Notes: generated from the letters alone by a model not told the origin. A DNA stretch of 62,713 bases, filler included, from Diploschistes diacapsis (GCA_023645945.1; 19 parts of 19 records of this genome joined end to end with filler, not necessarily neighbours in it); one strand, 5' to 3'. Shown: positions 14,904 to 38,099, counted from the whole stretch's first letter. Made by a program: numbers and translations.

Positions 14904-15419
14904 NNNNNNNNNNNNNNNNNNNNNNNNNNNNNNNNNNNNNNNNNNNNTTAATTAATTAANNNNNNNNNNNNNNNNNNNNNNNNNNNNNNNNNNNNNNNNN
15001 NNNCCGGTACAGGGAAGAGCTTTAGTTGGGGAGTGATTGCTAGTGCTTTGGCTCAGGGATCGTACTAGATAGGTCTGGGCTGTTTTTGAAGCTCTCCTTG
15101 AAGGAGTTTCAGAATCGGCAATGATTGATTGATCGGGAGCATACTCTCGAGCTTTTGTGTGGGGGCCAAAGGGGGCGGAAGCGGTGTGCTTGGTGTGCAC
15201 GTTGTTCTTGATGTCGTTTGGCGGTCTGTCTCGCTATATCTTATCTTTCTATCTCCCGCCTGCCGCCTCCCCCCCGTCCACCAAACTGCGCTTTTCTTTA
15301 CACTCTTTCGCCGTCCTCGGAACCCCATCTCAGAATCCACCATCCCTCAACCTCATGCCGTACAGCCCAGAACAACCACGTGCTCCCTCGTAGTGTAGGC
15401 CTGACCGCGAGCTACCGAA

Positions 15420-17430: not shown

Positions 17431-19071
17431 CTATTCAGAACTGGCTGCTGGTGACATACCTCGCACTCTGTCAAGAAGCTCCTCGACATTACCAGGGAGT
17501 GAGTCTCCGCGCCATGCGACCATACCATCTGGGCGAACAAGTACCAGCCGACGCTCATAAAGTCGTGTCGGCTCGGCCTCGGTCATGGTAATAACTTCCA
17601 ACGGAAGGCGCACCTTGCGTGCTGCTTCCACTATCCTCCCGTCACTTGGCGCTTCTGTGCCAAAACAGAGCAGTACAAACCCACCACCGAATAGGTCGAT
17701 TGTCGAGCACCCGTTCTTCAACCAGCAATGGGGGGCACGATGACCCGGCCGCGCAGTCTGAACGTATATGGCGGGCTCGTCCGGTGGCGCAGGCGAGCCA
17801 TCCGGTACAATGATCGGTGAGTCTGAATAGTTATATCCAAATGCAAGACCTAGAGCCTGGAACTCTTGGCTCAGGCTGGCAACCATCTTCTCGCCGAGGA
17901 CATGTCTCTGCTCGTCTGCCTCAGCACCCTCATCCAGCACCTTCTCTCTTCCTTGACGGTCAACCCAAATAGAGAAGTTTCGTGTGGAGCCAGAGCCGTT
18001 CCGAATCGCCACAGGCCGCCGTTCTGTGTTGTATGCTTCAATGAGACCCGGCCCTCCCCAACCTTCTAGGAGTGCCTGCAAAGCCCAGCTGAGTCCCATC
18101 ACATCGCTTAGCCCTGTGTTTAGCCCGTGCCCGCCGGTTGGTGACATGGTGTGTGCAGAATCTCCAGCCAAGAATACACGACCTTTGCAGTATTTTTCTG
18201 CAGTAAACTGACTGCGTCGCCACTGGAGCACTCGCTTTATTTGGTATTTGATATCATCACGGCCAACGGCCTTCTGCACCAACGCATCCATATCGATGGA
18301 TGCAGGGTCTATCTTTTCACTCGTGCCCATCACCGAGAATCGCCAAAGCGACCGACCATCCAGGGTAGTGAAATTTGCCCAAGTCCCTTCGGGGCTGATA
18401 AACATATAGCGCTCTGCCATGCCTAAGGGATGGTAATCCGTCAGATTGTCGATTCGAACAATTGCACTTAGGGTGTACCCGAGGTCTCGACCGTCAAAGG
18501 AAATGCCGAGTGCCTTGCGCACTGCACTGGAAGGGCCATCACAACCCACAAAGTACCGTGCTCGTACATTCTCTTTGGTGTCATCTTTTACATGTTTGAG
18601 GAAGCACGTAACACCGGTCTCATCCTGCTCACATCCAACAAGCTCAATTCCGTAGCGGATGTCCGTCATGCCCTGGCGAACCACGGCGTGAGCAAGCACT
18701 GGATCAAACAAAAACTGTGGACATCGGCGCAGCATTTCGCTGCTCTGCTTTGGAAGTTCGCGGTCCTGAGTCGAGGGCATCCGAAGACGGCCGATGAACT
18801 TGCCGTTGAGCGAAGTACAGAAGACCGTGTCACCAGAGACATCATCGGGAAAGCCTGCTCTAGCAACCTCGTCTCTAACGCCTAGGAGCCGCAAGAATTC
18901 CATGCTGCGCTCGTTCAGGACACTTGCTTTAGCAAGGATCTCAGTTCTAGTGCCTGGACCACGCTCGATAATCGTCGAATGGACTCCGCGCCGTCCCAGA
19001 TCTAGCGCTAGGGCGAGACCGACTGGTCCTGCACCCGCGATGAGCACGTTGAGAACATTCGAGGTGGCCAT
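17431..19071 (-). CDS. FAD-dependent aromatic monooxygenase (FAD_binding_3, PheA/TfdB-like), 546 aa, intronless
   Basis: GAGPVG Rossmann motif, GCDG motif, FLAGDSAH..SPTGGHGLNTG motif, and C-terminal RPGHRAPH and LVRPDGMVAWRG. Confidence 0.93.
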   Translation of the reverse strand: MATSNVLNVLIAGAGPVGLALALDLGRRGVHSTIIERGPGTRTEILAKASVLNERSMEFLRLLGVRDEVARAGFPDDVSGDTVFCTSLNGKFIGRLRMPSTQDRELPKQSSEMLRRCPQFLFDPVLAHAVVRQGMTDIRYGIELVGCEQDETGVTCFLKHVKDDTKENVRARYFVGCDGPSSAVRKALGISFDGRDLGYTLSAIVRIDNLTDYHPLGMAERYMFISPEGTWANFTTLDGRSLWRFSVMGTSEKIDPASIDMDALVQKAVGRDDIKYQIKRVLQWRRSQFTAEKYCKGRVFLAGDSAHTMSPTGGHGLNTGLSDVMGLSWALQALLEGWGGPGLIEAYNTERRPVAIRNGSGSTRNFSIWVDRQGREKVLDEGAEADEQRHVLGEKMVASLSQEFQALGLAFGYNYSDSPIIVPDGSPAPPDEPAIYVQTARPGHRAPHCWLKNGCSTIDLFGGGFVLLCFGTEAPSDGRIVEAARKVRLPLEVITMTEAEPTRLYERRLVLVRPDGMVAWRGDSLPGNVEELLDRVRGMSPAASSE

Positions 19072-19803: not shown

Positions 19804-21411
19804 TCAGACCGTCACTGTAGCCACCTGGTGCTCAGCAGTGACCTCCCTATTCTGCTTCACGTGATTACTAGCAGGTGTCTCCAAGTCAGGAACGTACTGC
19901 CAGGCCCTATCAAGTCCGCCATAAAACACCCATCGTATCATGTTATCGACTACCATGTTGCCGCCGAGGCCTACATTCTTAGTCACACCTTCTGCAACAC
20001 TCTCCGGCATTCTGTGGCCATCAGCTTCGATTGCCCTCTCCACAGAGTCCACAGTCATGTGAGCGATCTTGACAAAGTCTTCCTTCGCGATCGGGAAATC
20101 AGACCCTACCTCACCCAGCTTCTCCAGACTGTACAATGCGCGCATCACTTTCGCCACATGCCCTTCGTCGCGGTAGACTACAGAACGGTGGAAAAGTTCT
20201 TTCCAGCCGTCCCTTGGATGTCGCGGTGCATAGTTTATGATACGTGCAGGATGCAACGTCGGACTCGCACAGGCGGCGTACATTACGACATCGACCCTTG
20301 CCTTGGCTTCAATCAAGCGGGCCTTTTCTTGATCGGAGATCCAGTCGAGCGCCAAGATGGCCGGATAGAAGACAGAGAGTGTAACATTGTGCAAGAGCAC
20401 GAAGTCCATGGTTTCGCGCTTGCCGGGGCGCTGCGCCGCTCCCATTATATACGCGCAGGTATACATCATGTCTTCCATTTTGCGCTGCAAGCCTTCCGGC
20501 GTCGGCTCGACTTGGAACTGGCTCAGGTGGGGTGCAAGCTCCTTGCCTCCAACGCGTTTGAGAAGACCGTCGCGAATCTTATTGAAGGGATCCGAGTCTC
20601 TCACAGCTGAGTTAATTACAGGATCCTGGCGTAGACCTTCGATTACTTGAAGGAGTGATTTGGACGATACTCCCTGGCCTGACCGAACATACTCTTCGGT
20701 AGGTAACAAAAAGTCCTTGGGCCAATTGTCATGAACACATGCTGCCGCAAGCGCTTCTGCAACAAGACTCGGTTGGTTGAACTCCAGAGCGCACCCCAGA
20801 TGTATTATTGGATGCACGAGGTCTGATAATGACTGTTAGGAAGCAACACTGGCAATGCTCGTGCTGGATTCATTTACCTGTATACATTCGGCAGAAGATA
20901 TCATTTGCACGCTCATCGCCCTTGAGAACATACTCTCTGACAATGTCCGGCACACCTTTCTCGGAAATTTCGTCCTCAAAGAACTTCAAGAAATCTGCAT
21001 AGTGGTCATTGTTTCCAAGACATTTATCAAAAAGTGCTGGATCCTTCAGATCCAGAAGCGATGGTGTCGCCGCATCATTTCCCTTGATGGGGACTTGATA
21101 TGGCTGGTTGTAGTCCCACATATTTTGTATTTCATTGGGGGACGCTCCCAATGCCCACAGCGCGAGAAGGTGGTGAACGATGTGGTCTTGATTCAAAAGT
21201 CAAATATAGTGCTTGATTGACTGGCTTATGTTGACCTACTGTGGAAGCCGCCATTGAATCGGGTGTGGTATGCAGCATGATTGAGTGTGAGCAGCTCAGA
21301 CGCCCTTTTTGCGCTTTCTTCTGTCAGATCTTCAGCATGTGTATGGCCTGGGGTAGCGGTAGGAGACAGCAGTATGGTTTTCGACGCAGTTTGGGGATCA
21401 ATGGCCGTCAT
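19804..21411 (-). CDS. Questin-oxidase / AflY(HypA)-like oxidative ring-cleavage enzyme, ~499 aa, 3 exons (21411-21240, 21186-20878, 20822-19804)
   Basis: GT-AG introns join three ORF pieces into 1500 nt in frame. Family motifs are FHNHIVHHLLALWALGA, HPIIHLGCALEF, DFVLLHNVT and DEGHVAKVMRAL. Confidence 0.85.
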
Positions 21412-21783
21412 ATTGAACGCAGTGGCTGAGGAAGCTCACAAGCAATATTGTGCAACAATGCTGCCAATAGTATTATATTGTGGTATCTGTCAGATGGGTG
21501 CAGGTTGTTGAAGTCCTAAAGCCGGGTTCTTAAGGGCGAAGTTCAGCGAAGTCCGGCATCAATCGAGAGCCAAAAAGCCAAGTTCTGACGTTGTAACATC
21601 ATCATAGAGCAAGCTTCGTCTTGTCTTGTCTTGTCGCTCCGAAAACAAAACGCATGCTGAGAATCTTAGGTAATCTCATAATATATAAATATATAAATAA
21701 AAGACCCTGCTTGTGTGGCGCCAGCTAGGGCTACGCTAACTTGATTCGAGGACTGACTGATGACACATGCCCCGAGACTAGTG

Positions 21784-21799
21784 CCGATCGGTCTCCGAA
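21784..21799 (+). promoter_or_regulatory. Putative Zn2Cys6 site in the divergent questin-oxidase/OMT promoter
   Basis: CCGATCGGTCTCCGAA, 15/16 identical to the site at 25500-25515. Confidence 0.65.
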
Positions 21800-22026
21800 A
21801 TGAAATCTACCCGTTAGAACTACCCGAACTACCCGAAGGCATCGAAAACCCGCACCTAACCTCCCACGTCCACACCATGAGCTAGTCAGTACTACCAGCG
21901 GACCTGGTAGCGGTCATGCCCCTAGTTGTCAACCATATGTAAACACTACTACCGTTGATAGATCTCTGAACCTACTTGATTGTTTCACTATACACAGAGT
22001 CAGATGGTTAAGCTATAGCATGCAAC

Positions 22027-23519
22027 ATGTCCGCCGAACAACCAAACGGCTTATCTGAGCCAGCATTCCCTCTTGAGGAGCTGAGCTGGAAGATCACCAA
22101 GAATGCCAGCGTATTGAGCCAGTACCTAGGAGCAAATAACCTTCCGCAGCCATCGTTGGACGGCGACGGACCAAGTACCGTCGTTCCCAAGGATGCGCCG
22201 CAACATATCCGACAATCACAGCAGCATCTCATTTCAGCATCTCTCGAGTTATTGCAGCTTGCGGTTGGGCCCAGCGAGTACTTGCCCAACCTCGCTCTAG
22301 GGGTAACAATGACGCGCCTCTACTTCATCACCTACAAACATGACGAACTAATGTTCAAGAGTTTCAATACGTCTCCTGTATCTCCTGGCTCTGCCAGTAC
22401 AACATTTTCCGTCTCGTGCCCCTTAGCGGAACTATCAGCTATGGCGATCTTGCAACAGCAGCGCATGTTCCCGAGCAACGCCTCAAGAGCGTCGTGCGCA
22501 TGGCTATGACCGATGCACTTTTCCGTGAACAGTCGGATGGCAAACATATTAGTCACTCGGCGACGTCAGCGCTGCTGGCGCGCAATGAAGATATACACGC
22601 TTGGGCTAGCTATATCTGTGCCAGATCGGCACCAATGGCCATGCAATTTGCAGCAGCGCATAAGCGTTGGGGACCCGAGACCGTACGCGACAACGAGACG
22701 GCCTACAATGTCGCGTTCAACACAGATCTTCCCTTTTTCAAACACATTGGCCGTGACGAGGCCACAATGAGTGAGTTTGCCGGGTATATGCGGAACGTAA
22801 GGAATAGCGATGGCGTCGACATCCGACACCTTGTGGCAGGCTTTGCGTGGAAAGATATCCCTGAGGGCGGTGTTGTTGTTGATGTACGTGCATTCTTTCC
22901 CCGGAACCCTGAGGCTTTTGTATGTGAGAGACTTGACTGATGTCTTTCTGCCATTTAGGTGGGAGGATCGACTGGTGGCGCCGCTATAGCATTGGCCAAG
23001 ACATATTCCCATCTCACCATCATGGTACAGGACCTGCCTGCTAACGCGGACAGCGGGCGCAAAGCAGCAGAGTCTTTCTCTGCAGATATCGCATCTCGGA
23101 TCACCTTCCAAGGCCATGATTTCACTCAGCCGGAGCCAGTGCGAGATGCCGATGTGTATCTTCTCAGGATGATCCTGCACGATTGGCCCGACGATGAAGC
23201 CGCAACAATCCTCAGAAACATAGTCGTGGCGATGGACAAGACAAAGTCACGGCTGCTCATCATGGACACGGTGCTCCCGACGCCAGGGTCGGTGCCTGTT
23301 TCTGTAGAGCGTCTTGCTCGGGTTAGAGACTTGACCATGATGCAAGCTTTTAACAGTAAGGAAAGGGATCTGGCTGATTGGAAGCATCTGATTGCCGCTG
23401 CCGATCCAAGCCTGCAGCTGGTAAATGTCATGCAGCCATTTGGTAGCGCTATGTCGATTTTGGAGGTGACATTAGGTTCTACAACAACAGAGAATGGCCA
23501 TGTAACTAGCTCCCCATAG
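22027..23519 (+). CDS. SAM-dependent O-methyltransferase (Methyltransf_2), ~452 aa, 3 exons (22027-22302, 22362-22883, 22959-23519)
   Basis: VVD|VGGSTG SAM motif split by an intron, plus VQDLP, HDF and LLRMILHDWPD. Introns are canonical GT-AG and splice in frame. Confidence 0.93.
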
Positions 23520-23765
23520 GACCAGGCCCTCGGTCTAACCAGACTTGTCGGCTAAATCTTCGTCTGTTTGGTAGACAAATCGACCGAGCCATGATGTGCA
23601 CCTCGTGCTTCTCTACTCATTTTGGAACATCGACGTGGCTATCGAGACAGGAGACATGAGCCTAGTGACCCAGTAGCAGTCCGACCCAATGAGAAAATTC
23701 GGAGACCATCAGGTGGATTGAACTATTTCCGCAAATTTCTCAAGTCCTGCAACAGCAGGCATACA

Positions 23766-24905
23766 CTACTCCCCATTCGGAATGAAATACACACTCTTAC
23801 CTGGGCCAGCTTCTGCGGCAGCAACATTGAAGGCCTCTTCCCAATCCTCAAGCCTGAACTTCCCGCAAACTTTCTGACCTGCCCTGGAGCCAACCTTCAG
23901 CACACCCCTTTCCACAGTTTTAATCAAGTCCCTAGCCTGCTGAGTTGTGTTCATGAAGGTCCCTTTGATTGTGATGTTCTTGAACGAGATCTGCGAATAG
24001 GGCAGATCGAGGTTATCTCGAATTCCTCCCATTAAGCTCATGCGACCTCCTGACTTCAAGCACATGAATCCCGCTTTGATGTGCGAGCTTTTACTGGCCA
24101 CGGTCGGGGAGATGTCGAAGTAAACATCCAAGGGTCCAAACTTCGCCAGAGCATTAACATCTTCTTGTACGTCGCCGCTGATCTTGACGATTTCTACCCT
24201 TCCAGGCTCGGCGAGCTTCTTCAGCTCTGCGAGCGCCATCTCATTCCTTCCCATAGCGATGACTCGGGCTCCCATAGACAGAGCAACATGCACCGCAGCA
24301 CTGCCGAATGATCCCGTAGCCGTAGCAATCAAGACCGTCTCACCGGGCTTCAAGCCGATATCTGCGAGTCCGCCGTATGGTACGATCAGCTGGCTAAGCG
24401 CTCCAAGTTCTTCAAGCTTATACCCCAATTGTCCAACTAGAGCATTCTCGTCGAGGACATGCACTCCTTCCATCGGCGCTGTTGATAGTTCGCCCCAGCA
24501 CCCGTTTCGCCAATCCTCCGCCATCAGCTTTCTGCCTGCCTCACTGACCTCGTGGAAGCCACGCAGGATTTTGACATTGGGGTCGTCACGGGCCCGCACC
24601 GTTACCTCGACGTATACCAGCTGCCCAGGTTTCAAGCTAGTAGCATCGGACGGCACAGCAGCGATGCGGGCGATGCATGTTCCGCCGGGGACGGAGGGCA
24701 GAGGGTATTTGTAGCCTCTTGGGTTTCCGTTTGCGAAGATTTCCCCAGCGTATTGAACAATGATAGCATACAAAGGCTTGATGACTACGGTTCCAGCAGT
24801 GGGGATTGGAGTCGGCAGCTTCGCGAGGGTGAGAGATTCGGACGGGGAGTGGATCTGCAGGCCAGTGTAGGTCTCCGGGAGAGAGTGTTCTGCATGAGCT
24901 GCCAT
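23766..24905 (-). CDS. Medium-chain dehydrogenase/reductase (GroES-like ADH fold), ~379 aa
   Basis: ATGSFGSAAV nucleotide-binding motif and MDR-like layout. The likely start is MAAHAEHSLP (24905) rather than 25076. No classical GHE zinc motif is seen. Confidence 0.85.
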   Translation of the reverse strand: MAAHAEHSLPETYTGLQIHSPSESLTLAKLPTPIPTAGTVVIKPLYAIIVQYAGEIFANGNPRGYKYPLPSVPGGTCIARIAAVPSDATSLKPGQLVYVEVTVRARDDPNVKILRGFHEVSEAGRKLMAEDWRNGCWGELSTAPMEGVHVLDENALVGQLGYKLEELGALSQLIVPYGGLADIGLKPGETVLIATATGSFGSAAVHVALSMGARVIAMGRNEMALAELKKLAEPGRVEIVKISGDVQEDVNALAKFGPLDVYFDISPTVASKSSHIKAGFMCLKSGGRMSLMGGIRDNLDLPYSQISFKNITIKGTFMNTTQQARDLIKTVERGVLKVGSRAGQKVCGKFRLEDWEEAFNVAAAEAGPGKSVYFIPNGE

Positions 24906-25499: not shown

Positions 25500-25515
25500 C
25501 CGATCGGTGTCCGAA
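25500..25515 (+). promoter_or_regulatory. Putative Zn2Cys6 site in the divergent MDR/P450 promoter
   Basis: CCGATCGGTGTCCGAA, almost exactly midway (~600 bp) between the two ATGs. Confidence 0.65.
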
Positions 25516-26116: not shown

Positions 26117-27760
26117 ATGGACGGGATACTTGCTACATACGAAAGCCAGAGAATTCTGGCTCTTGCGACGCTGTTTACGGCCATAGCAATTGTTATAGCA
26201 TGGCTACGCCGTGATCGCAGGCTTGACTCAATACCGGGACCAAAGGGTTACCCGCTGATTGGCGTCGGTTACAAACTTCCACCTAAGGCGCCGGCGATCT
26301 TCCGCAAATGGGCGATGGACTATGGTGAAGTTTTCAAAATTCGTGTGGGCTGGTACAACTGGGTGGTCATCAATACTCCGGAAGCCGTACGGGAGATTCT
26401 AGAGAAGCAGGCCATCAGCACGTCCTCCAAGGCTCCTTCTCCAATGGGCCACGACATAGTCACAGGTGGGAATCGTATGCCGACGATGCCGTACGGAGCT
26501 CGCTGGAAAGCTCTGCGGTCAGTGGTGCGGCAACTCACCACGGTACCCATGACGGCAACCTTCATCCCGAGCCAGGAGTTCGAGGCCAAACAGCTGCTCT
26601 TTGATCTAGCCACCGATAACGAAAACCAGCGCAACTTCTACCAGCACATGCGCCGCTTCGCTTTTAGCGTCATTAACACAACCACGTTCGGCACTCGCGT
26701 CAAGAACTGGGACCACCCAGATGCGCAGAATGCGGTAAGAAGTCAGGCGATATTGAGAAGAACGTCGCGACCCGGAGCTTTCCTTGTCGACGAATTACCT
26801 CCACTGGCCCGTCTACCAAAATGGCTCCAACCCGGTCAAAAAGAGGCAAAACAGGCCGCCAAGCAAGTGTTAGACATAAAGGTGGAGCTGTGGCAGCGAT
26901 TGCAGAAGCAGATCGAGTCAGGCAAGGCGCCTCACTCTTTTGCACGCGAAATTTATGAAAGCAGGGAATCGTGGTATTCTCAGGGGCTCACAGAAGAGCA
27001 CTTGATATGGGTTTCCAGTGGGCTTGTTGAGGCAGGTTTCGAGACGACAGCGGCCACGCTGAGCAGCCTTGTGCTCCATCTTGCCGCGAACCCGCGGGTA
27101 CAGAAGGAGGCACAGGAAGAGCTCATGCGTGTTGTCGGCCCCAGTCGTCTGCCCACCTACCAAGACATTCGCGCTCTGCCATATGTTCGTGCCTGCGTCA
27201 AGGAAATGCTTCGCATGAACCCCATTCTAGCTCCGGGCGTTCGGCATTTTACCGACGAAGACATCGTGTACAAGGAGCACATCATACCCAAGGGAACAGT
27301 ACTGCTCGCCAATACGGCTTTCTTGCATTACGACCCCACGCGTTTCGAAGACCCGTTCGAATTCAAGCCCGAGCGCTACCTGGACCATACCCTGTTCAGC
27401 TCCGAGTACGCGGCCATGAGCGATCCATACAAGCGTGACCACTTTACTTTCAGCACGGGCAGAAGAACGTGTCCGGGTGCGCGTCTGGCCGAAAACTCGC
27501 TCGACATTGCGCTCGCGGGCATCCTGTGGGCCTTTGAGATCCGGCCGCCCGTCGTGAACGGTGTCGAGGCCAAGATGGACCTGAGCGACAATGCATACCT
27601 GGACGCGGGATTCACCATACCTACACCCTTTGCCGCCAGATTCCTCCCAAGAAGCGAGGATAGGCTTCGAATAGTCAAGGAGCAGTGGGATCTTGCGACA
27701 AAGGAAGGCTACGAGCTCAGAGGCGTACCAGTTGACCTCGATGGCGTAGTTGGGGACTAG
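26117..27760 (+). CDS. Cytochrome P450 monooxygenase (CYP64/OrdA-like clan), 547 aa, intronless
   Basis: N-terminal membrane anchor plus PGP, I-helix AGFETT, EMLR (ExxR), PERY and heme motif FSTGRRTCPG. Confidence 0.95.
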   Translation: MDGILATYESQRILALATLFTAIAIVIAWLRRDRRLDSIPGPKGYPLIGVGYKLPPKAPAIFRKWAMDYGEVFKIRVGWYNWVVINTPEAVREILEKQAISTSSKAPSPMGHDIVTGGNRMPTMPYGARWKALRSVVRQLTTVPMTATFIPSQEFEAKQLLFDLATDNENQRNFYQHMRRFAFSVINTTTFGTRVKNWDHPDAQNAVRSQAILRRTSRPGAFLVDELPPLARLPKWLQPGQKEAKQAAKQVLDIKVELWQRLQKQIESGKAPHSFAREIYESRESWYSQGLTEEHLIWVSSGLVEAGFETTAATLSSLVLHLAANPRVQKEAQEELMRVVGPSRLPTYQDIRALPYVRACVKEMLRMNPILAPGVRHFTDEDIVYKEHIIPKGTVLLANTAFLHYDPTRFEDPFEFKPERYLDHTLFSSEYAAMSDPYKRDHFTFSTGRRTCPGARLAENSLDIALAGILWAFEIRPPVVNGVEAKMDLSDNAYLDAGFTIPTPFAARFLPRSEDRLRIVKEQWDLATKEGYELRGVPVDLDGVVGD

Positions 27761-27889: not shown

Positions 27890-29080
27890 TCAAGTATCGA
27901 GCTCCCTCAATCTAGATCTCACCATATTGGCTATCCGTGAATGCTCGCTTCTCAACCATGAGTCTAAACTTTGATACAAATTATTTACACCGCTAAAAGC
28001 ATATTCATCGAGGGGAGATTGTCCGCCAGAGCTATGTGAAGTGAACTGATCGATGAGACGGCCGGCTCTCCTCATCTCCCCCGACAGTAACTGCATCTTC
28101 AAGGCGGTCTCGACGTGTAGATCGTCGACGTCGAAAGTGCCGATGGCCATCTTTGCTGCAGCACTTTGTGCGCAAACAGCCGCTTGTTGATACCACATCA
28201 GGATCCGGGAGATGATGGATGCATAGAGCAATGTGAGGTGCGGGGATTTAGCACAGCGGCAGGATAGAAGACGAACGAGCCGCTCGCTGGCCTCGCGGTT
28301 GAGGTGTAATATGTGATCCAAGGGCATGCGCTGGACGGTGCTGGCCGTGGCCGAGGCCGAGGCTGGTGGCGATTGAGATATGGAAGGTGCGTTGTTGAGG
28401 CTATGCAAAGACAAGCCGCCTAGGATTTCGTACGCTTCCGAAACACAGTCGTGACCTTTATCACCTGCAGGCGGCAGTAAGGTACCGTCGAGATAGCCGG
28501 ACTCATCCACCTGGGTCAGAGAAGCATCGGTTTGCGTCGCGGGAGTTGAGAAGGCTTCGAACACGGGCGCTCCCAGCGAAGAGACCAGGCCGGTGTTCAT
28601 ATCAGAAGATAGCGCATCACCGTGCTCCAAAGACGTGAAATCCGGGAGCACAGACCCGAATAGATTGCCGTGCAGTGCATCAAGCGCATCAACGCTTAGC
28701 ATATAGTTACTCCGAAAGCCATCAACGGCGCTCCTTGCTAAGAATACATGATTAACGCTCGAAACTGGTCCAGAGCTCGGGACGATACCATCAAAGCCAT
28801 TGCCAGCACCAGTACTGCGATCATAATCTCTGTCCCTAGCCTGGCTGCCAGCGTGCTCGCCAGGCGTGCAAGATGCGCTCGACGCCTCAGTGATCCGGAG
28901 TCTCTCCCGCGGCGGCTTACCCATTTTCCGTGACACTCCGTAGACACATTTAAAGCCAAGCGAGATGCACCTGCCGCACTCAGGCTGGGCCCGATCACAT
29001 CGAAGCTTCGCAGCACCGCATGCATCGCAACTAGATCGCAGCTTCAGTTGTCTCGGGACTCGAGTCGGTGCATCGGCCAT
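27890..29080 (-). CDS. AflR-type Zn(II)2Cys6 pathway-specific transcription factor, 396 aa
   Basis: KLRSSCDACGAAKLRCDRAQPECGRCISLGFKCVY binuclear cluster. The C-terminal HDC...LLSCRCA...ISRILMWY segment is typical of the AflR domain. Confidence 0.9.
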   Translation of the reverse strand: MADAPTRVPRQLKLRSSCDACGAAKLRCDRAQPECGRCISLGFKCVYGVSRKMGKPPRERLRITEASSASCTPGEHAGSQARDRDYDRSTGAGNGFDGIVPSSGPVSSVNHVFLARSAVDGFRSNYMLSVDALDALHGNLFGSVLPDFTSLEHGDALSSDMNTGLVSSLGAPVFEAFSTPATQTDASLTQVDESGYLDGTLLPPAGDKGHDCVSEAYEILGGLSLHSLNNAPSISQSPPASASATASTVQRMPLDHILHLNREASERLVRLLSCRCAKSPHLTLLYASIISRILMWYQQAAVCAQSAAAKMAIGTFDVDDLHVETALKMQLLSGEMRRAGRLIDQFTSHSSGGQSPLDEYAFSGVNNLYQSLDSWLRSEHSRIANMVRSRLRELDT

Positions 29081-29820: not shown

Positions 29821-29887
<67 letters not shown>

Positions 29888-31013: not shown

Positions 31014-34000
31014 ATGGCAGATCAATTGAAGTTGTACCTCTTTGGAGACCAGACATATGATATTCAACCACATTTCAAAGATTTGGTACGGCATAGGCAG
31101 AATCCAGTACTTGAAGACTTCCTTGTCAAAGCATACGATGCCATTCGCACAGAGACATACAAGCTACCAAGCCATATCAGGGATGAGCTTCCTCGATTCA
31201 CAAGCCTGGACGATATCATCTTCCGGAGGCACGGCGGAAGACGATGTGTGCCCCTGGATATGGCCATGACTTGCACGTATCAGCTTGGAGCCTTTATCAG
31301 GTATGAACGAATTCTGACCGGTCTGGCAGAGAAGCTAAAACGAGCCGTTCAGTCAGGTTGACCATCGGAATTACTGCGGCGAGAATGCTCGTATATTTGG
31401 CCTTTGTACAGGAGCCTTGGCTGCGGCGGCAGTTGGCTGCAGCCGTAGCACGCTCGAACTCATCCCAATGGCAGTTAATGCGGTCGTTGTGGCTTTCAGA
31501 ACAGGTATGCATGTGACCGACGTTGCACGGCGAATCGAGCCCTGGCATGCATCGGACCGAAGCTGGTCAATAATCGTTCCTGGCCTGGCGGCTGCTGAAG
31601 AGGCTGTAAATCGATTCTGCGAAGAGACCGTAAGAATACCCTCCTCGATCCCTTGATTTTCATATTTCACAGCTTTCTCCGTCGGCGGTTAACTTGGCAC
31701 TTTCATCAGATGCTGCCACTTACGAGCAAACCATGGAGCAGCGCATACGCCGTGAACGGATTAACGGTCAGCGGGCCGCCCGGCTCACTGGCACAACTTA
31801 CCACTTCGACGAGTTTCAAAGACCTACGCTTTCAGAGCATGCAGATCTTCGCACCATATCATGCTCCACATCTACATTCTCAGGGAGATGTTGATGAAAT
31901 CGTCGGAAGCTTGATTCCCTGCGGTGCGGATGCGCATCTGAACCAGATTCCAGTCTTCTCCGGCACGGGAAGTACGGTGGAAGGTGGCGATTTCCGGGCG
32001 CTTTTGAAGGCCGCAGTCGGGCAAATACTGCTGCAACCGATTCGCTGGGGCAGCTTCCTTGAAGAGCTTCAGACATGTCTCAAGAAGCTGGGCTCCAGGT
32101 CATTCAGTATCATTCCCATCGGAACCAAAGCCGACCAGCTCATCTACACGGCGCTCAAGCAGACGCCGCTGCGAGAATTGTTGCTATCTCCACCAACACC
32201 CAGTATCCCGTCGCTTTCGGAAGATCCATCACATTCACGCCACGGAAGGTCCAAGCTCGCCATCATAGGAATGTCTGGCAGATTCCCCGGAGCCAAGGAC
32301 AATGAGGCATTCTGGGACCTCCTGTACCAAGGTCTGGATCTGCACAAGCCTGCTCCAGCACTTCACTGGGACGTAAGAACGCACGTGGACCCCACAGGCG
32401 CCCGAAAAAACACCAGTCAAACGCCGTTCGGCTGCTGGCTCGATGACCCGGCCGTGTTCGACGCACGCTTCTTCAATATTTCGCCACGGGAAGCGCCGCA
32501 AATCGATCCTGCACAACGACTGGCTTTGATGACGGCTTATGAGGCAATCGAACAAGCTGGTATTGTTCCGGATGCAACTCCCTCGACCAGGCGTGATCGT
32601 GTCGGCGTCTTCTACGGCGTCACCAGCAATGATTGGATGGAGACCAACAGTGCCCAGAATATCGACACATATTTCATACCGGGTGGGAATCGAGCATTCA
32701 TACCCGGGCGCATCAACTACTGTTTCAAGTTCAGCGGCCCGAGTTTCGCGGTCGATACGGCATGTTCGTCCAGTCTCGCTGGTATTCACCTTGCATGCAA
32801 TTCGCTCTGGCGAGGGGATATTGACACGGCGATCGCTGGCGGGACAAACGTTCTGACCAACCCAGATTTCACGGCTGGGCTCGACAGGGGGCACTTTCTC
32901 TCACGGACCGGGAACTGCAAAACCTTTGACGACACGGCGGACGGGTATTGTCGCGGAGAAGGTATCGGGACCGTCATTCTCAAACGTCTCGACGATGCCA
33001 TTGCCGACAAGGATCCAATCCTGGGCGTCATACTCAGCGCGTACACTAACCACTCCGCGGAGTCCGAGTCGATTACTCGGCCACATGTTGGAGCCCAGCG
33101 TGCGATATTCAGCAAAATCCTCAACCAAGGAGCCGTGGATCCATACACCGTCAGTTACGTTGAAATGCATGGTACGGGCACCCAAGCAGGTGATGCCGGG
33201 GAAATGTCTAGCGTTCTGGATACTTTTGCGCCGTCTCCGGACCAGGCCACGAAGGGCCGAGCTAGTGACGAGGCTCTCTATCTGGGATCTGCGAAGGCGA
33301 ATATCGGACATGGCGAAGCCGCGTCCGGTGTTTCGAGCCTGATCAAGGTGCTGCTGATGATGCAGAAAAACACCATTGTTCCGCATTGCGGAATCAAAAC
33401 GAAAATCAATCACAAGTTTCCGACGGATTTACGGGAACGGAACGTCAACATCGCCTTGAAGCCCACCTCTTGGGAGAGAAGCTCTGATCCCTCGAAGCCT
33501 CGACGCGTCTTCGTGAACAATTTCAGCGCTGCGGGTGGAAATTCAGCGTTGCTGATCGAAGACGCACCGCTCAAGCCCGAACCTTCCGATGAAGTTACAG
33601 ACCCGCGAAGTCAACATCTCGTGGCAGTCTCTGCCAAAAATGGCGTCTCTTTGCAGGGTAACCTCGAATCCATGCTCAGGTTCTTGAAACAGAACCCAGG
33701 TATCTCCCTCAACAAGCTTTCCTATACCACCACAGCTCGGCGACTGCATCATCGGCACCGTGTCATGCTTACTGGCTCAAACGTTGAAGAGTTCTGTGCG
33801 CAAATCGAAACAGCTCTCCGCGACCGGACCGGGATGACCAGATCCAAGAGTGCTCCGAAAATCCTGTTCACCTTCACTGGTCAAGGTGCACAATATCCTG
33901 GGATGGGGAAGGAGCTCTTTGAGAACTTCTCTTTTTTCCGGAATGAAATGCGCCGACTGGATCACATTGGACAGAGCCTGGGCTTTCCCTCCATGCTACC

Positions 34001-37000
34001 CGTCATACAGTCCGATGAACAAGACATCGGTATCTATGCGCCCATCTCTGTCCAATTAGCTGGCGTCTGCTTTCAAATTGCCCTCCATAAATTGTGGGCG
34101 TCATGGGGCATCCTGCCCGTCGCCGTCGTCGGACACAGCCTCGGCGAATATGCAGCTCTTAACGCTGCTGGGGTGCTATCGGACGCAGATACCGTCTACC
34201 TTGTGGGGAAGAGAGCCGAGTTGCTCCAGCAGGAATGCACTCGAGATACCCATGCAATGCTTGTCGTCAAGGGGTCGGTGGATGAGATCGCTGTTATCCT
34301 GAAGGATCACGCGCACGAAGTTGCTTGTATCAATTCACCGACCGAAACTGTTCTGGCTGGGCCGAACGAAGACATCTTTGTTTCTCAGGGACTACTCAGG
34401 GATGCAGGGCTTAAATCGGTGCTGCTTAAGGTCCCCTACGCTTTTCATTCCTCTCAGATCGAGCCGGTGCTGGAGGATTTCAAGAGGTCAGCCAGTGGCG
34501 TGACGTACTCCAGGGCCAAGATCCCTATCCTAAGTCCCTTGGATGGCAACATCATCGACGACCACGGCAGTTTCGGCCCCGACTACCTCGTTCGTCATTC
34601 TCGCGAGCCTGTAAACATGCTCAAGGCGCTCCAGGAGGCATACCGCAGTCACGTTATTACTGACCAGACTATGATGCTTGAGAATGGCCCACATCCGGCA
34701 ATTTCGACTATGGTGAAGACAGTCCTAGGGCCGCAGATGCCGACCCTCGCATCATCGAAACGGGGCCAGCCGATCTGGCAGGTGCTGGCAGTAACCTTGA
34801 AAACCGCTTACGCCGCTGGCGCCGACGTCAACTGGTCCAACTACCACCGCGACTTCAAGGTCTCTCACGAAGTCATTCCCTTGCCGGCATATAGCTGGGA
34901 CTTGAAGGAATACTGGATCCAGTACGTTAATGACTGGTCTCTGCGGAAAGGCGACCCTCCTTTAATAATCAATAATGCCTTGACGCTCGAGAGCACAACG
35001 ATCCACAGGGTCGTTGAGGAGACGGGCGATTCCCACAAAACTCGCATGGTCGTGGAGGCAGATATCGCACGGAAAGATCTCAGTCCACTAGTGCAAGGGC
35101 ATGAGGTTGATGGAATTCCGCTTTGCACGCCGTCAGTTTACGCGGACATTGCATTGAGCCTCGGTACATACCTCCTGAAGCGTTATCGTCCGGACCAGGA
35201 GGAGAATCTTGTGGACGTTTCGGATATGACAATCTCAAAGGCTTTGATTCTGCGCGAAGGCGCCGCCCAGCAGCTCCTTCAAGCGCATGCCGAAGTTGAC
35301 TGGTCGTCGAACGCGGCAGCTGTCAAGTTCATGTCCTTTGATGTAAGTGCTCCTTTGCATCCGACCTACTTCCCTTCTCTGGACGAAGAGCTAATGAAAT
35401 CTACCTCAGAGCCACCAGAAGCTACAGGAGCACTCACGATGCGTGGTGCGCTTCAAGGACAGGAGTCTCCTGAAGAAGCTCCAAAAAGACGCGGCAGACG
35501 TGAAGCGGAAGATGCAAGCTCTCCGAGAAGGAATTGCCGCAGAAGTCACCGCCCGTTTCAACCGCCCTATGGTATATCGTGCGATAAGACCGCTGGCGCG
35601 ATTCCACGACGACTATCGGGCCATTGACGAGATCGTGTTGAACAGCAATACGCTCGAGGCCTCGAGTCGTCTCAGCTTCGGCAGTGTGAAGAGAGGCGGC
35701 GACTACCACACCCATCCAGCCATAATCGATTCTCTGACGCAGTCTTGCGGATTCACCATGAACTGTAACGATGGAACTGATCTGGATACCGAAGTCTTCA
35801 TGAACCATGGATGGGGCTCCTTCCAGATATTTGAGCCCTTGGATTTTGATAAGGAGTATACTACCTACACACGCATGGTCGAGGGGCAAGACAAGTTGTG
35901 GCATGGGGATGTGGTGATCTTCAACGGTGATGAAATAGTCGCCCACTTCGGGCAAATTTCCGTAAGTTCATTCTGCTCCGTTTCGGATGACATGAGCACT
36001 GTGCTTACCGTATCTTCTAGATCCAAGGCGTGCCACGTCGGGTCTTGAAGGTTATTCTCTCACTCGAAAGCGGAGTCAAATCACAGAAGCGGCAGCCTGC
36101 CTCCAAGAAAGAGCCTGTTCCTACAATGCCGGCTTCTTCCACTGGTGCCTCTCGGGGTTCTACACCGGTCAAGGAAGAGCCTGATGCATCTAGGCTTGCA
36201 CAAGCATTATCGATCATCGCCGAAGAGAGTGGCCTTGCATTATCGGATTTGACTGACAACACCACTTTTGGCGACGTCGGGATCGACTCCCTCCTGGGTC
36301 TTACAGTCACCGCTCGATTCAAGGAGGAGCTTGGCATAGACATGGATTTCAACGCGCTGTTCTTCGAGTATCCCACAGTCAGCGATCTCAGAGCTTTCTT
36401 GGGAGAGTCCGAGGTTACCTCACCTGCAAGCTCTGTCCTGAATACCACAACGACCACGCCAAGGTCTAATGTAACTGGGGCCACGACACCGGCTACCGAC
36501 AGGGACTCACTCGCGCAAAAGATTGATTTCCAGCGCGCTCTCGAGATTATTTCACAAGAAAGTGGAGTCGCGACGGAAGAACTCGGTGACGATACCGATT
36601 TCACTGACTCTGGCATCGATTCTCTGTTGTCGCTTGTCATCGTCAGTCGCTTACGGGACGAGCTGGAAATGAACCTTCAGCACGAGTCTCTCTTTATGGA
36701 GTGCCCAACCGTGGGAGACTTGAAGCAAATGCTGTTAGGGGGCACAAACGCCAACGACACGGCCCGACCACCAGCGGAGAGCAAGCCGGTCTCCACTCCA
36801 GCCCCTGAGTCAGCACAGAATACAGCCAAGAAGAACAGGCCGACGCTTCAAACTGAGGATGAAAAGGCGGTTCTTGCAGCTCGCAAGGAGGCGGTTGATG
36901 GGTATGTTCAGAAGTACACTGCCGGATTCTCTGCACCCGTCCCTGCAAGCTCGTATACTGCCATAAACGACAACACAAAGGTTGTATTGGTAACGGGAGC

Positions 37001-38099
37001 ATCCGGGAGCTTGGGAGGCCACTTGGTTGATCAAATCGCGCAAATGGCTGACGTGAAGACGGTTGTCTGTCTGAATCGCGAGAAAAACGTGGAACCCTAT
37101 CTGCGCCAAAGCAAGGCCATGAGGGACAAGGGCATCCGCTCCTTCGACAAAATCAGGTCCAAGCTGCTGGTGTTGCAAACCGACAGCTCAAAGCCAAACT
37201 TTGGACTCTCAAGAAGCGAATACGAAAGGCTGACGGGTTCGGTCACTCACCTCATTCATAATGCGTGGCCCATGAGCGCAAAAAGGGCTTTGGCTGGATT
37301 CGAGTCTCAGTTTCAAGTCATGCGCAACCTCATCGACTTTGCTTGCGACGTTGTGTCTCGGCGTTCGGAGGAATTCAAGTTCAGCTTTCAGATGGTGTCT
37401 TCGGTCGGCGTGGTGGGCCACTACGGCCTCGGGAACGGCGAGGAAAAGACCATGGTGCCCGAAGATAGAATGAGCATCGATTCGGTACTCCCAAATGGCT
37501 ACGGAGACGCAAAATGGGGCTGTGAGAGGATGATCGACGAGACGTTGCACAAGCATCCCAACCGATTCCGAGCCATGGTAGTCCGCCTGGGGCAGATTGC
37601 CGGCTCCAAGACCAGCGGATACTGGAACCCCATGGAGCACTTTGGCTTCTTGATCAGGTCCTCGCAGACGCTGAACGCTCTACCAGACGTAGATGGCACC
37701 GTCTACTGGACCCCCGTCAACGACATTGCCGGAAGCCTTGCCGACCTCGTACTGTCGGACCATGCAACCTACCCAATCTACCACATCGAGAACCCGGTCG
37801 GCCAGCCTTGGTCCGAGATGAATACTATTCTGGCTCATGCGCTGAACATTCCGAACTTGGTCCCCTTCGAGGAGTGGCTCGAGCGCGTCCGAGCGGCTCC
37901 GCAACGAAACAACCCGGCCTCCACGCTCCTAGGGTTTTTGGATAGCAACTACCTTCGGATGTCTTGCGGGGGGCTTGTTCTGGGCACAAAGAAGGCCCTT
38001 GAGCATTCCAAGACACTTGCTGCCGTTGGGCCCGTGAGCGAGGAGGTGGTCAGGAAGTACATTCATGTTTGGAAGGAAATTGGCTTCTTGGACTCATAA
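31014..38099 (+). CDS. Non-reducing iterative PKS SAT-KS-MAT-PT-ACP-ACP-R (Fsr1/PGL1-like architecture), ~2275 aa, 5 exons (31014-31300, 31353-31629, 31710-35342, 35410-35961, 36021-38099)
   Basis: SAT GLCTG; KS DTACSSS, HGTGT and NIGH; MAT GHSLG and YAFH; PT GHEVDG...IIDS; two GIDSL ACP motifs; terminal reductase TGASGSLG and YGDAK. Four GT-AG introns give a 6828-nt in-frame CDS. Confidence 0.95.

What the first reader, a model, noticed from the sequence alone, without database searches (positions are those of the whole stretch)
19804..24905. Questin-oxidase-like enzyme paired with an MDR reductase instead of the usual SDR partner
Seen: the protein keeps four His-containing motifs and an HxxK (GHVAK), and the cluster has no SDR, only an MDR lacking the GHE zinc motif. 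Known: in anthraquinone cleavage (GedF/GedK-type logic) a reductase first makes the hydroquinone and the dioxygenase then opens the ring. BTG13-type members bind iron through His residues and a carboxylated Lys. Inference: here the MDR may act as the quinone reductase, and the substrate may be a naphthoquinone/pyranonaphthoquinone rather than an anthraquinone, which would be a new substrate class and enzyme pairing.
Basis: partly seen in the sequence, partly recalled or inferred. Interest (0 to 1): 0.7.

Follow-up and report, generated by a model that had tools for sequence, protein, structure and literature searches.

The report
Ring-opening iron dioxygenase in fusarubin-type cluster
A lichen-derived fungal pigment gene cluster of the fusarubin type carries a ring-opening iron enzyme from a family so far shown to cut three-ring and one-ring quinols, so it probably opens a two- or three-ring naphthoquinone, while its proposed partnership with the neighbouring reductase remains unproven.

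Summary
Window 19804-21411 (-) encodes a 499-aa, three-exon PF14027 (DUF4243, "questin oxidase") protein. It has all five BTG13/PaD iron ligands (H59, H164, H305, H382, K385) and the second-shell residues. Window 23766-24905 (-) encodes a 379-aa MDR with no zinc ligands (GHE is GGT). No SDR or NmrA-type gene lies in the GC-rich island.

The PKS is a clear Fsr1/PGL1 (fusarubin) orthologue, with OMT, FMO, P450 and an AflR-like regulator beside it. The dioxygenase belongs to a separate, well-supported clade, about equally far from BTG13, 8yxs and PaD. In 22 of 29 species named in both hit lists, its orthologue shares a contig length with an Fsr1-type PKS. A naphtho- or pyranonaphtho-hydroquinone substrate is therefore well supported by context.

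The MDR-as-quinone-reductase idea is only weakly supported. For it: the MDR sits where a relative has an NmrA-like gene, looks NADPH-type, and shares a conserved TCGG-N3-CCGA promoter palindrome with the dioxygenase. Against it: related loci use NmrA/NAD_binding_10 genes or no reductase, and close MDR orthologues occur in 18 of 20 Hypoxylaceae-type species with no listed dioxygenase orthologue.

Verdict: a new variant of a known enzyme kind. The boldest reading is that this clade performs the long-proposed cleavage leading to fulvic acid or citromycetin-type pyranochromones.

The parts
17431..19071 (-). FAD-dependent aromatic-ring monooxygenase (546 aa); counterpart of the fusarubin-cluster monooxygenase by family and context
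   Evidence: PF01494 E 3.5e-75 and PF21274 E 1.5e-14. Orthology to Fsr3 was not tested.
19804..21411 (-). PF14027 (DUF4243, BTG13/GedK/PaD-type) non-heme iron dioxygenase, 499 aa, three exons: 21411-21240, 21186-20878, 20822-19804
   Evidence: Gene model. Pfam. PDB sequence matches. Clade placement.
21182..21184 (-). Codon of H59, first iron ligand (equivalent to BTG13 H55 and PaD H63); H57 and H62 flank it
   Evidence: Alignments. H57, N58, H59 and H62 are invariant in the 57-row family alignment A3.
20149..20160 (-). Codons of H382-V-A-K385 (GHVAK): fourth His ligand and the lysine that is carboxylated in BTG13 and PaD
   Evidence: H382 and K385 are present in 120 of 120 aligned rows.
21788..21798 (.). 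Palindrome TCGGTCTCCGA in the divergent dioxygenase/OMT promoter; candidate site for the AflR-like regulator
   Evidence: One of only 2 exact matches in the window. The same palindrome lies 150-720 bp upstream of the dioxygenase gene in L001-3, L005, L006 and L009.
22027..23519 (+). O-methyltransferase, with about two introns (near 22303-22358 and 22886-22958, not refined)
   Evidence: PF00891 E 2.1e-21 on the last exon. 65-69% identical to the OMT beside the dioxygenase in L006. Sequence read.
23766..24905 (-). Zinc-less, probably NADPH-type MDR oxidoreductase, 379 aa, no intron
   Evidence: Pfam. Alignment to 1llu shows GHE to GGT and AID to AMG followed by R. Model pLDDT 93.9. Only generic MDR fold matches at 14-21% identity.
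25504..25514 (.). Palindrome TCGGTGTCCGA in the divergent MDR/P450 promoter
   Evidence: Second of the 2 exact matches in the window.
26117..27760 (+). Cytochrome P450 (547 aa)
   Evidence: PF00067 E 5e-76.
27890..29080 (-). AflR-like Zn2Cys6 pathway regulator (396 aa)
   Evidence: PF08493 E 2.6e-19 and PF00172 E 3.5e-9.
31014..38099 (+). Non-reducing PKS with SAT-KS-AT-PT-ACP-ACP-R domains and introns; Fsr1/PGL1 (fusarubin PKS) orthologue
   Evidence: Domains. 67-71% identical over 1207 aa to Fusarium proteins named fsr1 or fusarubin-cluster PKS; 81% to a Nephromopsis pallescens NR-PKS.

Best explanation
Shown: the region lies inside a fusarubin-type (Fsr1/PGL1) heptaketide naphthoquinone gene cluster of a fungus recovered from a lichen sample. 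Gene 19804-21411 encodes a non-heme iron dioxygenase of the BTG13/GedK/BruN/PaD family, with a complete 4-His plus carboxylatable-Lys iron site.

Inferred (about 0.55): like its characterised relatives, it acts on the reduced (hydroquinone or keto-tautomer) form of its substrate. It inserts O2 next to a quinone-derived carbon and breaks a ring C-C bond. The likely substrate is a fusarubin-type naphtho- or pyranonaphtho-hydroquinone made by the PKS, the FAD monooxygenase and the O-methyltransferase. The product would be a ring-opened aryl keto-acid that can re-close to a chromone-type product.

The enzyme belongs to its own clade. That clade lacks PaD's 13-residue lid insertion, which fits a bulky substrate better than a monocyclic one.

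The hydroquinone could come directly from FMO para-hydroxylation (as with PaB/PaD), from general cellular reduction, or from a dedicated NADPH reductase. The zinc-less MDR at 23766-24905 is co-regulated cluster equipment and a candidate for that reductase (about 0.3). It may equally be an ene- or keto-reductase acting before or after cleavage.
For: - Family and metal site: PF14027 on exons 2 and 3. Ligands H59/H164/H305/H382/K385, plus H57, H62, F301, T308 and R457, align to the published BTG13 and PaD residues (PMC11371914 Results, PMC12173810 sections 2-4). H305, H382 and K385 are present in 120 of 120 rows. H59 is present in 51 of 53 rows that cover it.
- Fold: a model of orthologue P0020 (pLDDT 93.0) matches 8yxs, BTG13 and PaD at Z 48-49, rmsd 1.9-2.2 A, over 432-440 residues.
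- Separate clade: 15 rows at SH-aLRT 100 and 21 rows at 98. The BTG13/8yxs clade is elsewhere in the tree (P0414 scores 464 and 427 bits). Orthologue P0020 scores only 246, 228 and 209 bits to 8yxs, PaD and BTG13.
- No PaD lid: relative to the orthologue, PaD has 13 extra residues at motif 2 and 6 extra before F60.
- Context: the PKS is 67-71% identical to Fusarium fsr1 and has the same SAT-KS-AT-PT-ACP-ACP-R architecture.
Seven of those contigs are under 150 kb. Locus tags are adjacent in Thermocarpiscus (8606/8607) and close in Cercospora berteroae (07830/07835) and Astrocystis (471964/471969).
- Direct linkage: metagenome locus L003 holds the PKS R-domain end (77% identity) 3.7 kb from the dioxygenase.
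- Mechanistic background: hydroquinone substrates and the need for reduction (PMC11575538 introduction).
- MDR as cluster member: the TCGG-N3-CCGA palindrome occurs exactly twice in the window, in the dioxygenase/OMT and MDR/P450 promoters. It recurs upstream of the dioxygenase in relatives: 7 matches in the loci against 2.5 expected, with 2 of 200 shuffles reaching 7.
Against: - No biochemical data exist for this clade. The substrate is inferred from gene neighbourhood only.
- Co-location in named species rests on matching contig lengths and a few locus tags, not on inspected neighbourhoods. 7 of 29 species did not match.
- The family also holds enzymes with other outcomes, such as OzmD oxygen insertion and rearrangement (PMC12173810).
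- Fusarium makes fusarubins without this enzyme. 0 of the 120 listed dioxygenase hits are from Fusarium, so the enzyme is not needed for the naphthoquinone itself.
- The palindrome count in the window alone is not significant (17 of 100 shuffles reach 2).
- The MDR fold search gives no subfamily.
Confidence: 0.6

Rival explanations
1. One reading: the MDR is the dedicated NADPH quinone reductase. It replaces the usual NmrA/NAD_binding_10-type partner (GedF, BTG7, BruM, MdpK) and hands the hydroquinone to the dioxygenase.
For: - No SDR or NmrA gene is in the island.
- The MDR lacks all zinc ligands. Zinc-free MDRs typically reduce quinones or activated C=C bonds, not plain carbonyls (established MDR classification, recalled).
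- The NAD-specifying Asp is replaced by Gly followed by Arg.
- In relative L006 the order is NmrA-like, OMT, dioxygenase. In the window it is MDR, OMT, dioxygenase.
- The same palindrome precedes NmrA in L006 and MDR/P450 in the window.
Against: - 0 of 9 related loci contain an MDR homologue at E below 1e-8.
- 18 of 20 named Hypoxylaceae-type species with an MDR orthologue at 70% identity or more have no dioxygenase orthologue among the 120 listed hits; 49 weaker hits were not listed.
- PaD needs no reductase (PMC11371914).
Confidence: 0.3
2. The MDR acts elsewhere in the pathway. It could be an ene- or enoyl-type reductase on the pyran ring or quinone ring (dihydro-fusarubin-type products), or it could act on the unsaturated ring-opened product just after cleavage, as the SDR PaE follows PaD. 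The hydroquinone would come from the FAD monooxygenase or from general reductases.
For: - The MDR is zinc-less.
- MDR orthologues persist without the dioxygenase in many Hypoxylaceae.
- In the pa pathway the cluster reductase acts after, not before, the dioxygenase, and the hydroxylase delivers the hydroquinone directly (PMC11371914 Results).
- Relatives L001 and L003 show no reductase within 4-5 kb of the dioxygenase.
- MDR enoyl reductases are known in bacterial pyranonaphthoquinone pathways (ActVI-ORF2; recalled, not checked here).
Against: The positional parallel with NmrA-like genes in L005, L006 and L007 suggests that this clade usually does keep a reductase partner. No specific substrate can be named from sequence.
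Confidence: 0.45
3. The dioxygenase does not cleave a naphthoquinone. It acts either on a tricyclic aza- or carbo-anthraquinone-like derivative of the heptaketide (bostrycoidin type), or it performs a non-cleaving oxygenation or rearrangement.
For: - Fsr1/PGL1 products readily form aza-anthraquinones and anthrones (PMC4872168 abstract).
- The pocket architecture resembles the open BTG13/8yxs type.
- OzmD shows that the fold can support other chemistry (PMC12173810).
Against: The catalytic set used for cleavage is fully conserved: the H57 equivalent of the proton-coupled-transfer His, T308 and K385. A pyranonaphthoquinone is itself a linear tricycle, so this rival partly overlaps with the best explanation.
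Confidence: 0.15

Closest known systems
BTG13 (PDB 7Y3W), GedK, BruN (8yxs, deposited as 'Oxidoreductase AflY', from Aspergillus brunneoviolaceus), MdpL: anthraquinone-hydroquinone C-C cleaving PF14027 dioxygenases
   Same: Same fold: an orthologue model scores Z 48-49. Same 4-His-1-Lys site, and equivalents of H53, H58, T299 and F292. No PaD-type lid insertion.
   Different: Only 30-33% identity and a separate clade. It sits with an R-domain heptaketide Fsr1-type PKS, not with an anthraquinone PKS/MBL-thioesterase set. The window has no NmrA/NAD_binding_10 partner.
PaD and MtaD: monocyclic hydroquinone dioxygenases of penicillic acid and multicolosic acid pathways (PDB 8Z4Q)
   Same: Same family and ligands. 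The Phe before HxH (PaD F60) is kept as F56. R451 is kept as R457 (aligned position inferred). Similar cluster logic of NR-PKS, FMO, OMT, dioxygenase and a reductase (PMC11371914).
   Different: Lacks motif 2 (13 residues) and part of motif 1 (6 residues shorter). Motif 3 could not be aligned. The PKS makes a heptaketide naphthalene aldehyde, not orsellinic acid.
[quoted passage not shown]
   Same: Orthologous PKS with OMT, FAD monooxygenase and a Zn2Cys6 regulator. The published PglR motif CGG-N3-CCG (PMC4872168) is contained in the palindrome found here.
   Different: Fusarium shows no orthologue of the dioxygenase (0 of 120 listed hits). The only Fusarium MDR hit is 51% identical. The annotation of fsr4 as a zinc-type ADH is recalled; Studt 2012 was not held.
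GedF, BTG7, BruM, MdpK: NADPH quinone reductases that partner these dioxygenases
   Same: The proposed job is to make the hydroquinone. NmrA/NAD_binding_10 genes of this kind sit beside the dioxygenase in L005, L006 and L007. MdpK is listed as NAD_binding_10 in PMC5635595.
   Different: The window's only free-standing reductase is an MDR, a different fold.

Membership tests
PF14027 / BTG13-related 4-His-1-Kcx non-heme iron dioxygenases | Questin_oxidase (DUF4243) domain and all-helical fold | tested here: met
   Pfam E 1.6e-62 and 3.5e-29. An orthologue model matches 7y3w, 8z4q and 8yxs at Z 48-49; this was run on orthologue P0020, not on the window protein itself.
PF14027 / BTG13-related 4-His-1-Kcx non-heme iron dioxygenases | Four His and one Lys at the ligand positions | tested here: met
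   H59, H164, H305, H382 and K385 align to PaD H63/H166/H317/H394/K397.
PF14027 / BTG13-related 4-His-1-Kcx non-heme iron dioxygenases | Second shell: substrate/PCET His (BTG13 H53), H58, and T299 that stabilises the carbamate | tested here: met
   H57, H62 and T308 are present. T308 is found in 119 of 120 rows.
PF14027 / BTG13-related 4-His-1-Kcx non-heme iron dioxygenases | Iron binding, lysine carboxylation, and O2-dependent C-C cleavage of a hydroquinone | not testable with these tools
   Needs purified protein, ICP-MS, a crystal structure and assays.
GedF/GedK-type two-enzyme anthraquinone cleavage | NmrA/NAD_binding_10-type NADPH reductase encoded beside the dioxygenase | tested here: not met
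   None in the window. Present in related loci L005, L006 and L007.
GedF/GedK-type two-enzyme anthraquinone cleavage | Anthraquinone-forming PKS context and membership of the BTG13/8yxs clade | tested here: not met
   The PKS is an Fsr1-type R-domain heptaketide synthase. The dioxygenase falls outside the clade that holds the BTG13-like P0414.
PaD-like small-hydroquinone dioxygenases | Lid motifs 1-3 (K56-F60, K246-A258, T444-D448) | tested here: not met
   Motif 2 is absent and motif 1 is shortened by 6 residues with F kept. Motif 3 is undetermined (one search gave no alignment).
Fusarubin (Fsr1/PGL1) type cluster | SAT-KS-AT-PT-ACP-ACP-R PKS orthologous to Fsr1, plus OMT, FAD monooxygenase and a Zn2Cys6 regulator | tested here: met
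   Orthology of the OMT and FMO to Fsr2 and Fsr3 was not tested.
Zinc-dependent alcohol dehydrogenases (MDR, ADH type) | Catalytic zinc ligands (Cys, His of GHE, Cys) and a structural zinc lobe | tested here: not met
   GHE is GGT, the Cys positions hold Q or non-Cys residues, and the lobe has no Cys.
Quinone-oxidoreductase-type (zeta-crystallin-like) MDR | Specific similarity to QOR subfamily members | tested here: inconclusive
   Zeta-crystallin 1yb5 ranks 6th, among zinc ADHs and enoyl reductases, all at 14-21% identity. The sequence search is equally unspecific.

The most novel reading that the evidence does not exclude
This clade of BTG13-family dioxygenases is the missing enzyme for a long-proposed step: oxidative opening of a fusarubin-type pyranonaphtho-hydroquinone to give heptaketide pyranochromones such as fulvic acid, citromycetin and polivione.

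Cleaving the bond between one quinone carbon and the pyran-side ring carbon would leave an aryl carboxylic acid plus a beta-diketone. The peri-hydroxyl would then close that to a chromone. This keeps fusarubin's 3-hydroxy-3-methyl-dihydropyran ring and gives fulvic acid's 9-COOH.

In this lichen-derived cluster a zinc-less MDR would have displaced the NmrA-type quinone reductase used by relatives.

The fulvic acid and fusarubin structures and the labelling-based proposal (Kurobane, Hutchinson and Vining 1981; Staunton group) are recalled, not read here.
Probability: 0.2. Interest if true: 0.75.

Novelty: new variant of a known kind. Interest (0 to 1): 0.55.

Why it matters
The 4-His/carboxy-lysine dioxygenases are a young enzyme class. 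Substrates have been proven only for tricyclic anthraquinols, for monocyclic quinols, and for one bacterial C-nucleoside precursor.

This study finds a distinct, widely distributed clade, spanning Lecanoromycetes, Dothideomycetes, Eurotiales, Sordariales and Xylariales. It is embedded in fusarubin-type PKS clusters, which points to a third substrate class. It also points to a hidden branch of one of the most conserved fungal pigment pathways.

The finding gives a concrete candidate gene for the unassigned ring-cleavage step thought to lead to fulvic acid or citromycetin-type metabolites. It also offers a natural case in which the reductase partner is either swapped (NmrA-like versus MDR) or absent, which bears on how strictly these dioxygenases depend on a dedicated reductase.

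Tried and rejected
- Whole-genome look-up: no genome is held for this window.
- Earlier scan notes: none for this genome or sequence. A word search returned only bacterial Rieske-fusion findings that do not bear on this case.
- Sequencing runs: the stretch is held by a lichen-metagenome run that may be its source. No RNA holder is listed.
- The C-terminal 108 aa alone gave no PDB match, so PaD motif 3 could not be aligned.
- MDR classification: the protein atlas gave only generic ADH and ER cluster names. Foldseek gave only generic MDR matches.
- P0436 and P0453 were tested as possible PaD or BTG13 representatives and are neither. PaD's own clade was not among the rows in the tree.
- AflR-type motif TCG-N5-CGA: 10 matches against 17.5 expected, so not enriched. 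CGG-N3-CCG: 16 against 9.6 expected, but inflated by a repeat at 3.1-3.5 kb.
- Literature searches found no paper linking a PF14027 enzyme to a fusarubin-type cluster, and no fulvic acid or citromycetin gene cluster. The terms used were: DUF4243; fusarubin/AflY/questin oxidase/cristazarin/fsr1; fusarubin-like/PGL1/naphthazarin/pyranonaphthoquinone; fulvic acid/citromycetin/polivione/heptaketide; citromycetin/anhydrofulvic acid/gene cluster. Subscription journals are not covered.
- The biruloquinone cluster paper (PMC8161216) and the cristazarin paper (PMC8397021) were checked by passages and hold no PF14027 gene information.
- Studt 2012 (PMC3370568) is not held.
- Supplements of the PaD paper (SSN, alignments) were not opened. 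They may already show this clade.
- Complex prediction was not used, because no physical binding is claimed.

Full report
**What is in the window.** The window has the layout of a fungal genome shaped by repeat-induced point mutation. GC-rich islands lie at about 15-39 kb and 48-52 kb (50-55% GC), between AT-rich stretches of 26-35% GC. The first island is a polyketide gene cluster. Its genes are:
- an FAD monooxygenase (17431-19071, minus strand)
- the PF14027 protein (19804-21411, minus)
- an O-methyltransferase (22027-23519, plus)
- an MDR oxidoreductase (23766-24905, minus)
- a P450 (26117-27760, plus)
- an AflR-like Zn2Cys6 regulator (27890-29080, minus)
- a non-reducing PKS (about 31014-38099, plus) with SAT-KS-AT-PT-ACP-ACP-R domains

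The only public run holding the whole stretch is labelled a lichen metagenome and may be its source.

**Checking the observation.** The finding's borders are exactly the stop codon of the PF14027 gene and the start codon of the MDR. I built a three-exon model of 499 aa. Full-length orthologues read straight across both junctions, for example ...FHNHIVHHLL... and ...CRMYTDLVHPIIHLG....

The four His motifs and GHVAK are real. In HMMER alignments to solved structures they fall on the published iron ligands. PaD's ligands are H63, H166, H317, H394 and K397; BTG13's carboxylated lysine is K377 (PMC11371914 Results read in full; PMC12173810 read through section 5). In the window protein these are H59, H164, H305, H382 and K385.

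The second shell is also kept:
- H57 corresponds to BTG13 H53, the proton-coupled-transfer His.
- H62 corresponds to BTG13 H58.
- T308 corresponds to T299, which holds the carbamate.
- F301 corresponds to F292.

Across the window protein and 119 homologues, H305, H382 and K385 are present in 120 of 120 rows. T308 is present in 119 of 120. H59 is present in 51 of the 53 rows that cover it.

The MDR has ADH_zinc_N but only a sub-threshold ADH_N hit. Against the zinc ADH 1llu, GHE reads GGT, the catalytic Cys positions are not Cys, and the structural-zinc lobe has no Cys. The Asp that selects NAD is Gly followed by Arg, which points to NADPH.

No free-standing SDR or NmrA gene exists in either GC island. 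0 of 61 residual ORFs hit such a family, and tblastn finds no remnant. The PKS release domain is itself SDR-like.

**What pathway it belongs to.** The KS-AT-PT part of the PKS is 81% identical to a Nephromopsis pallescens NR-PKS. It is 67-71% identical to Fusarium proteins named fsr1 or fusarubin-cluster PKS, and has the same domain order. Fsr1/PGL1 releases the heptaketide 6-O-demethylfusarubinaldehyde. With the O-methyltransferase and the FAD monooxygenase this gives fusarubin, javanicin and bostrycoidin (PMC7589453 passages; PMC4872168 passages). The cluster therefore carries the fusarubin core set plus three extras: the dioxygenase, a P450 and the MDR.

**The dioxygenase is a clade of its own and travels with Fsr1-type PKSs.** Homologues at 60-74% identity occur in Lecanoromycetes, Dothideomycetes, Eurotiales, Sordariales, Xylariales and others. 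None of the 120 listed is from Fusarium.

I compared the hit tables of the dioxygenase and the PKS by hand. Seven of these contigs are under 150 kb. Locus tags are adjacent in Thermocarpiscus australiensis (8606/8607) and close in Cercospora berteroae (07830/07835) and Astrocystis sublimbata (471964/471969). The remaining 7 species did not match; some may reflect different assemblies.

A metagenome contig, L003, shows directly the end of the PKS (77% identity), an MFS transporter, a SnoaL-like gene and the dioxygenase.

In a tree of 91 rows (IQ-TREE quick search, LG+G4) the window protein sits in a clade of 15 rows with SH-aLRT 100, and in one of 21 rows at 98. The rows were the window protein, 14 orthologues, and 76 library representatives of 400-530 aa out of the 150 listed. 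The BTG13/8yxs clade lies elsewhere: its member P0414 scores 464 and 427 bits to those entries. Orthologue P0020 of the window's clade scores only 246 (8yxs), 228 (PaD) and 209 (BTG13) bits.

Entry 8yxs is deposited as 'Oxidoreductase AflY'. Its title names an Aspergillus brunneoviolaceus dioxygenase, presumably BruN of PMC11575538.

A model of P0020 (pLDDT 93.0) superposes on all three structures at Z 48-49, with 30-33% identity. I used P0020 because the spliced window protein may not be sent to the folding tool.

The family as a whole has 1674 representatives at E up to 0.001.

**Pocket type.** PaD's preference for small quinols is attributed to three inserted motifs that form a lid (PMC11371914). 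Relative to the clade's orthologue, PaD has 13 extra residues at motif 2 and 6 extra just before F60. The Phe itself is kept as F56. Motif 3 could not be aligned. The architecture is therefore of the open BTG13/8yxs type, which fits a bicyclic or linear tricyclic substrate better than a monocyclic one. This is an inference from alignment gaps, not from a pocket model.

**The reductase question.**

- In related loci the dioxygenase often has an NmrA/NAD_binding_10 neighbour. L005 and L007, from the sister subclade, have one directly beside it. L006, from the window's subclade, has the order NmrA-like, OMT, dioxygenase. The window has MDR, OMT, dioxygenase.
- The MDR is zinc-less and probably NADPH-dependent.
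- The palindrome TCGG-N3-CCGA occurs exactly twice in the 62.7-kb window, in the dioxygenase/OMT and MDR/P450 divergent promoters. The same palindrome lies 150-720 bp upstream of the dioxygenase in L001-3 (one taxon), L005, L006 and L009. It also lies just upstream of the NmrA-like ORF in L006. In the loci there are 7 matches against 2.5 expected, and 2 of 200 shuffles reach 7.
- The palindrome contains the CGG-N3-CCG motif reported for the Fusarium regulator PglR (PMC4872168).

Evidence against:
- None of the 9 loci has an MDR homologue.
- L001 and L003 show no reductase within 4-5 kb of the dioxygenase.
- Of 20 named Hypoxylaceae-type species with an MDR orthologue at 70% identity or more, only 2 (Annulohypoxylon moriforme and Parahypoxylon ruwenzoriense) appear among the 120 listed dioxygenase hits. 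49 weaker hits were not listed.
- PaD works without a reductase because the hydroxylase delivers the quinol. In that pathway the cluster's reductase acts after cleavage (PMC11371914).
- Structure-based classification of the MDR failed. The model has pLDDT 93.9, but the matches are generic at 14-21% identity.

The window count of the palindrome alone is not significant (17 of 100 shuffles reach 2). Its placement and its conservation in relatives carry the argument. I conclude that the MDR is probably co-regulated cluster equipment, but its step is open.

**Mechanism proposed.**
- Shown: family, ligands, clade, cluster type and absence of an SDR partner.
- Inferred: the PKS, FMO and OMT build a fusarubin-type quinone or quinol. 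The dioxygenase binds the reduced form and opens the quinone-derived ring by the BTG13/GedK/PaD route: H-abstraction, O-O cleavage, lactone formation and hydrolysis (PMC12173810, PMC11371914).
- From my own reasoning on recalled structures: cleavage between a quinone carbon and the pyran-side ring carbon of a fusarubin-type tricycle would give an aryl carboxylic acid plus a beta-diketone. The peri-hydroxyl would close this to a pyrano-chromone. That is the skeleton of fulvic acid, which keeps fusarubin's hemiketal pyran ring.
- Old labelling work proposed such a cleavage (recalled, not read). My searches found no gene cluster for fulvic acid or citromycetin.
- Weak side notes: an endolichenic Myxotrichum makes fulvic acid and citromycetin derivatives (PMC4738244 passages). 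Penicillium verhagenii carries an orthologue. It is reported to make an unknown quinone, while the other species of its series makes fulvic acids (PMC7426331 passages).

**Comparison and novelty.** This is a member of the PF14027 4-His-1-Kcx dioxygenase family by every feature testable here. It is not a member of the anthraquinone-cleaving clade or of the PaD-like lid-bearing branch. It works most probably like GedK/BTG13, on a different scaffold. A non-anthraquinone substrate is not new for the family since PaD in 2024. What appears new in the literature I could search is the association of a whole clade with fusarubin-type clusters. The reductase partner is variable: NmrA-like, MDR or none.

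**Limits.**
- No fungal genome neighbourhoods could be inspected.
- The supplements of the PaD paper were not opened.
- Studt 2012 was not held.
- All functional statements are inferences from sequence and context.

Noticed in passing
window 21788-21798 and 25504-25514; L001:2254, L002:496, L003:4764, L005:3871, L006:500 and 3541, L009:3640: The palindrome TCGG-N3-CCGA marks the two divergent promoters of the tailoring genes. It is conserved 150-720 bp upstream of the dioxygenase gene in related loci. It is a likely binding site of the AflR-like regulator and contains the CGG-N3-CCG motif published for Fusarium PglR.
   Followed up: yes
L001:1626-2147, L002:2-370, L003:4133-4657: In one group of relatives a SnoaL-like (PF13577) gene sits divergently next to the dioxygenase, between it and an MFS transporter and the PKS. 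The window has no such gene (tblastn). It could be a cyclase or dehydratase acting on the cleavage product.
   Followed up: partly
window 2049-15003 and 39300-60691: Pairs of 44-base N runs recur about every 2.14 kb, mostly in the AT-rich flanks (one pair lies at 49971-50070, inside the second GC island) and never between 15003 and 39300. They look like masking rather than assembly gaps.
   Followed up: no
window 1-14000, 39000-48000, 52000-62713: AT-rich isochores (26-35% GC) flank the 24-kb cluster island and a second small GC island. The pattern resembles repeat-induced point mutation and isolates the cluster.
   Followed up: no
window 29658-30080: A stretch in the PKS/regulator intergenic region translates as long poly-Tyr and poly-Leu runs followed by a repeated (E/T)VLFT-type unit, which indicates simple-sequence and short tandem repeats in the DNA.
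   Followed up: no
window 3093-3503, 9316, 43706: The 9-mer CGGACACCG recurs at 72-base spacing (3093, 3165, 3237; 3423, 3495) and again at 9316 and 43706. This indicates a dispersed or tandem repeat family in the AT-rich flanks.
   Followed up: no
window 50282-51785: The second GC island holds a Sec20-domain gene (PF03908, E 8.9e-9). It is a housekeeping gene unrelated to the cluster.
   Followed up: no
window 15420-16490 (-): A 356-aa Ser/Pro/Gly/Thr-rich open frame at the edge of the cluster island has no Pfam match. It may be a low-complexity protein or non-coding sequence.
   Followed up: no
PDB entry 8yxs: The chain is named 'Oxidoreductase AflY', but the entry title says it is a non-heme iron dioxygenase from Aspergillus brunneoviolaceus, presumably BruN. 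Many database proteins of the window's clade are likewise auto-named 'Oxidoreductase AflY' without being aflatoxin enzymes.
   Followed up: partly
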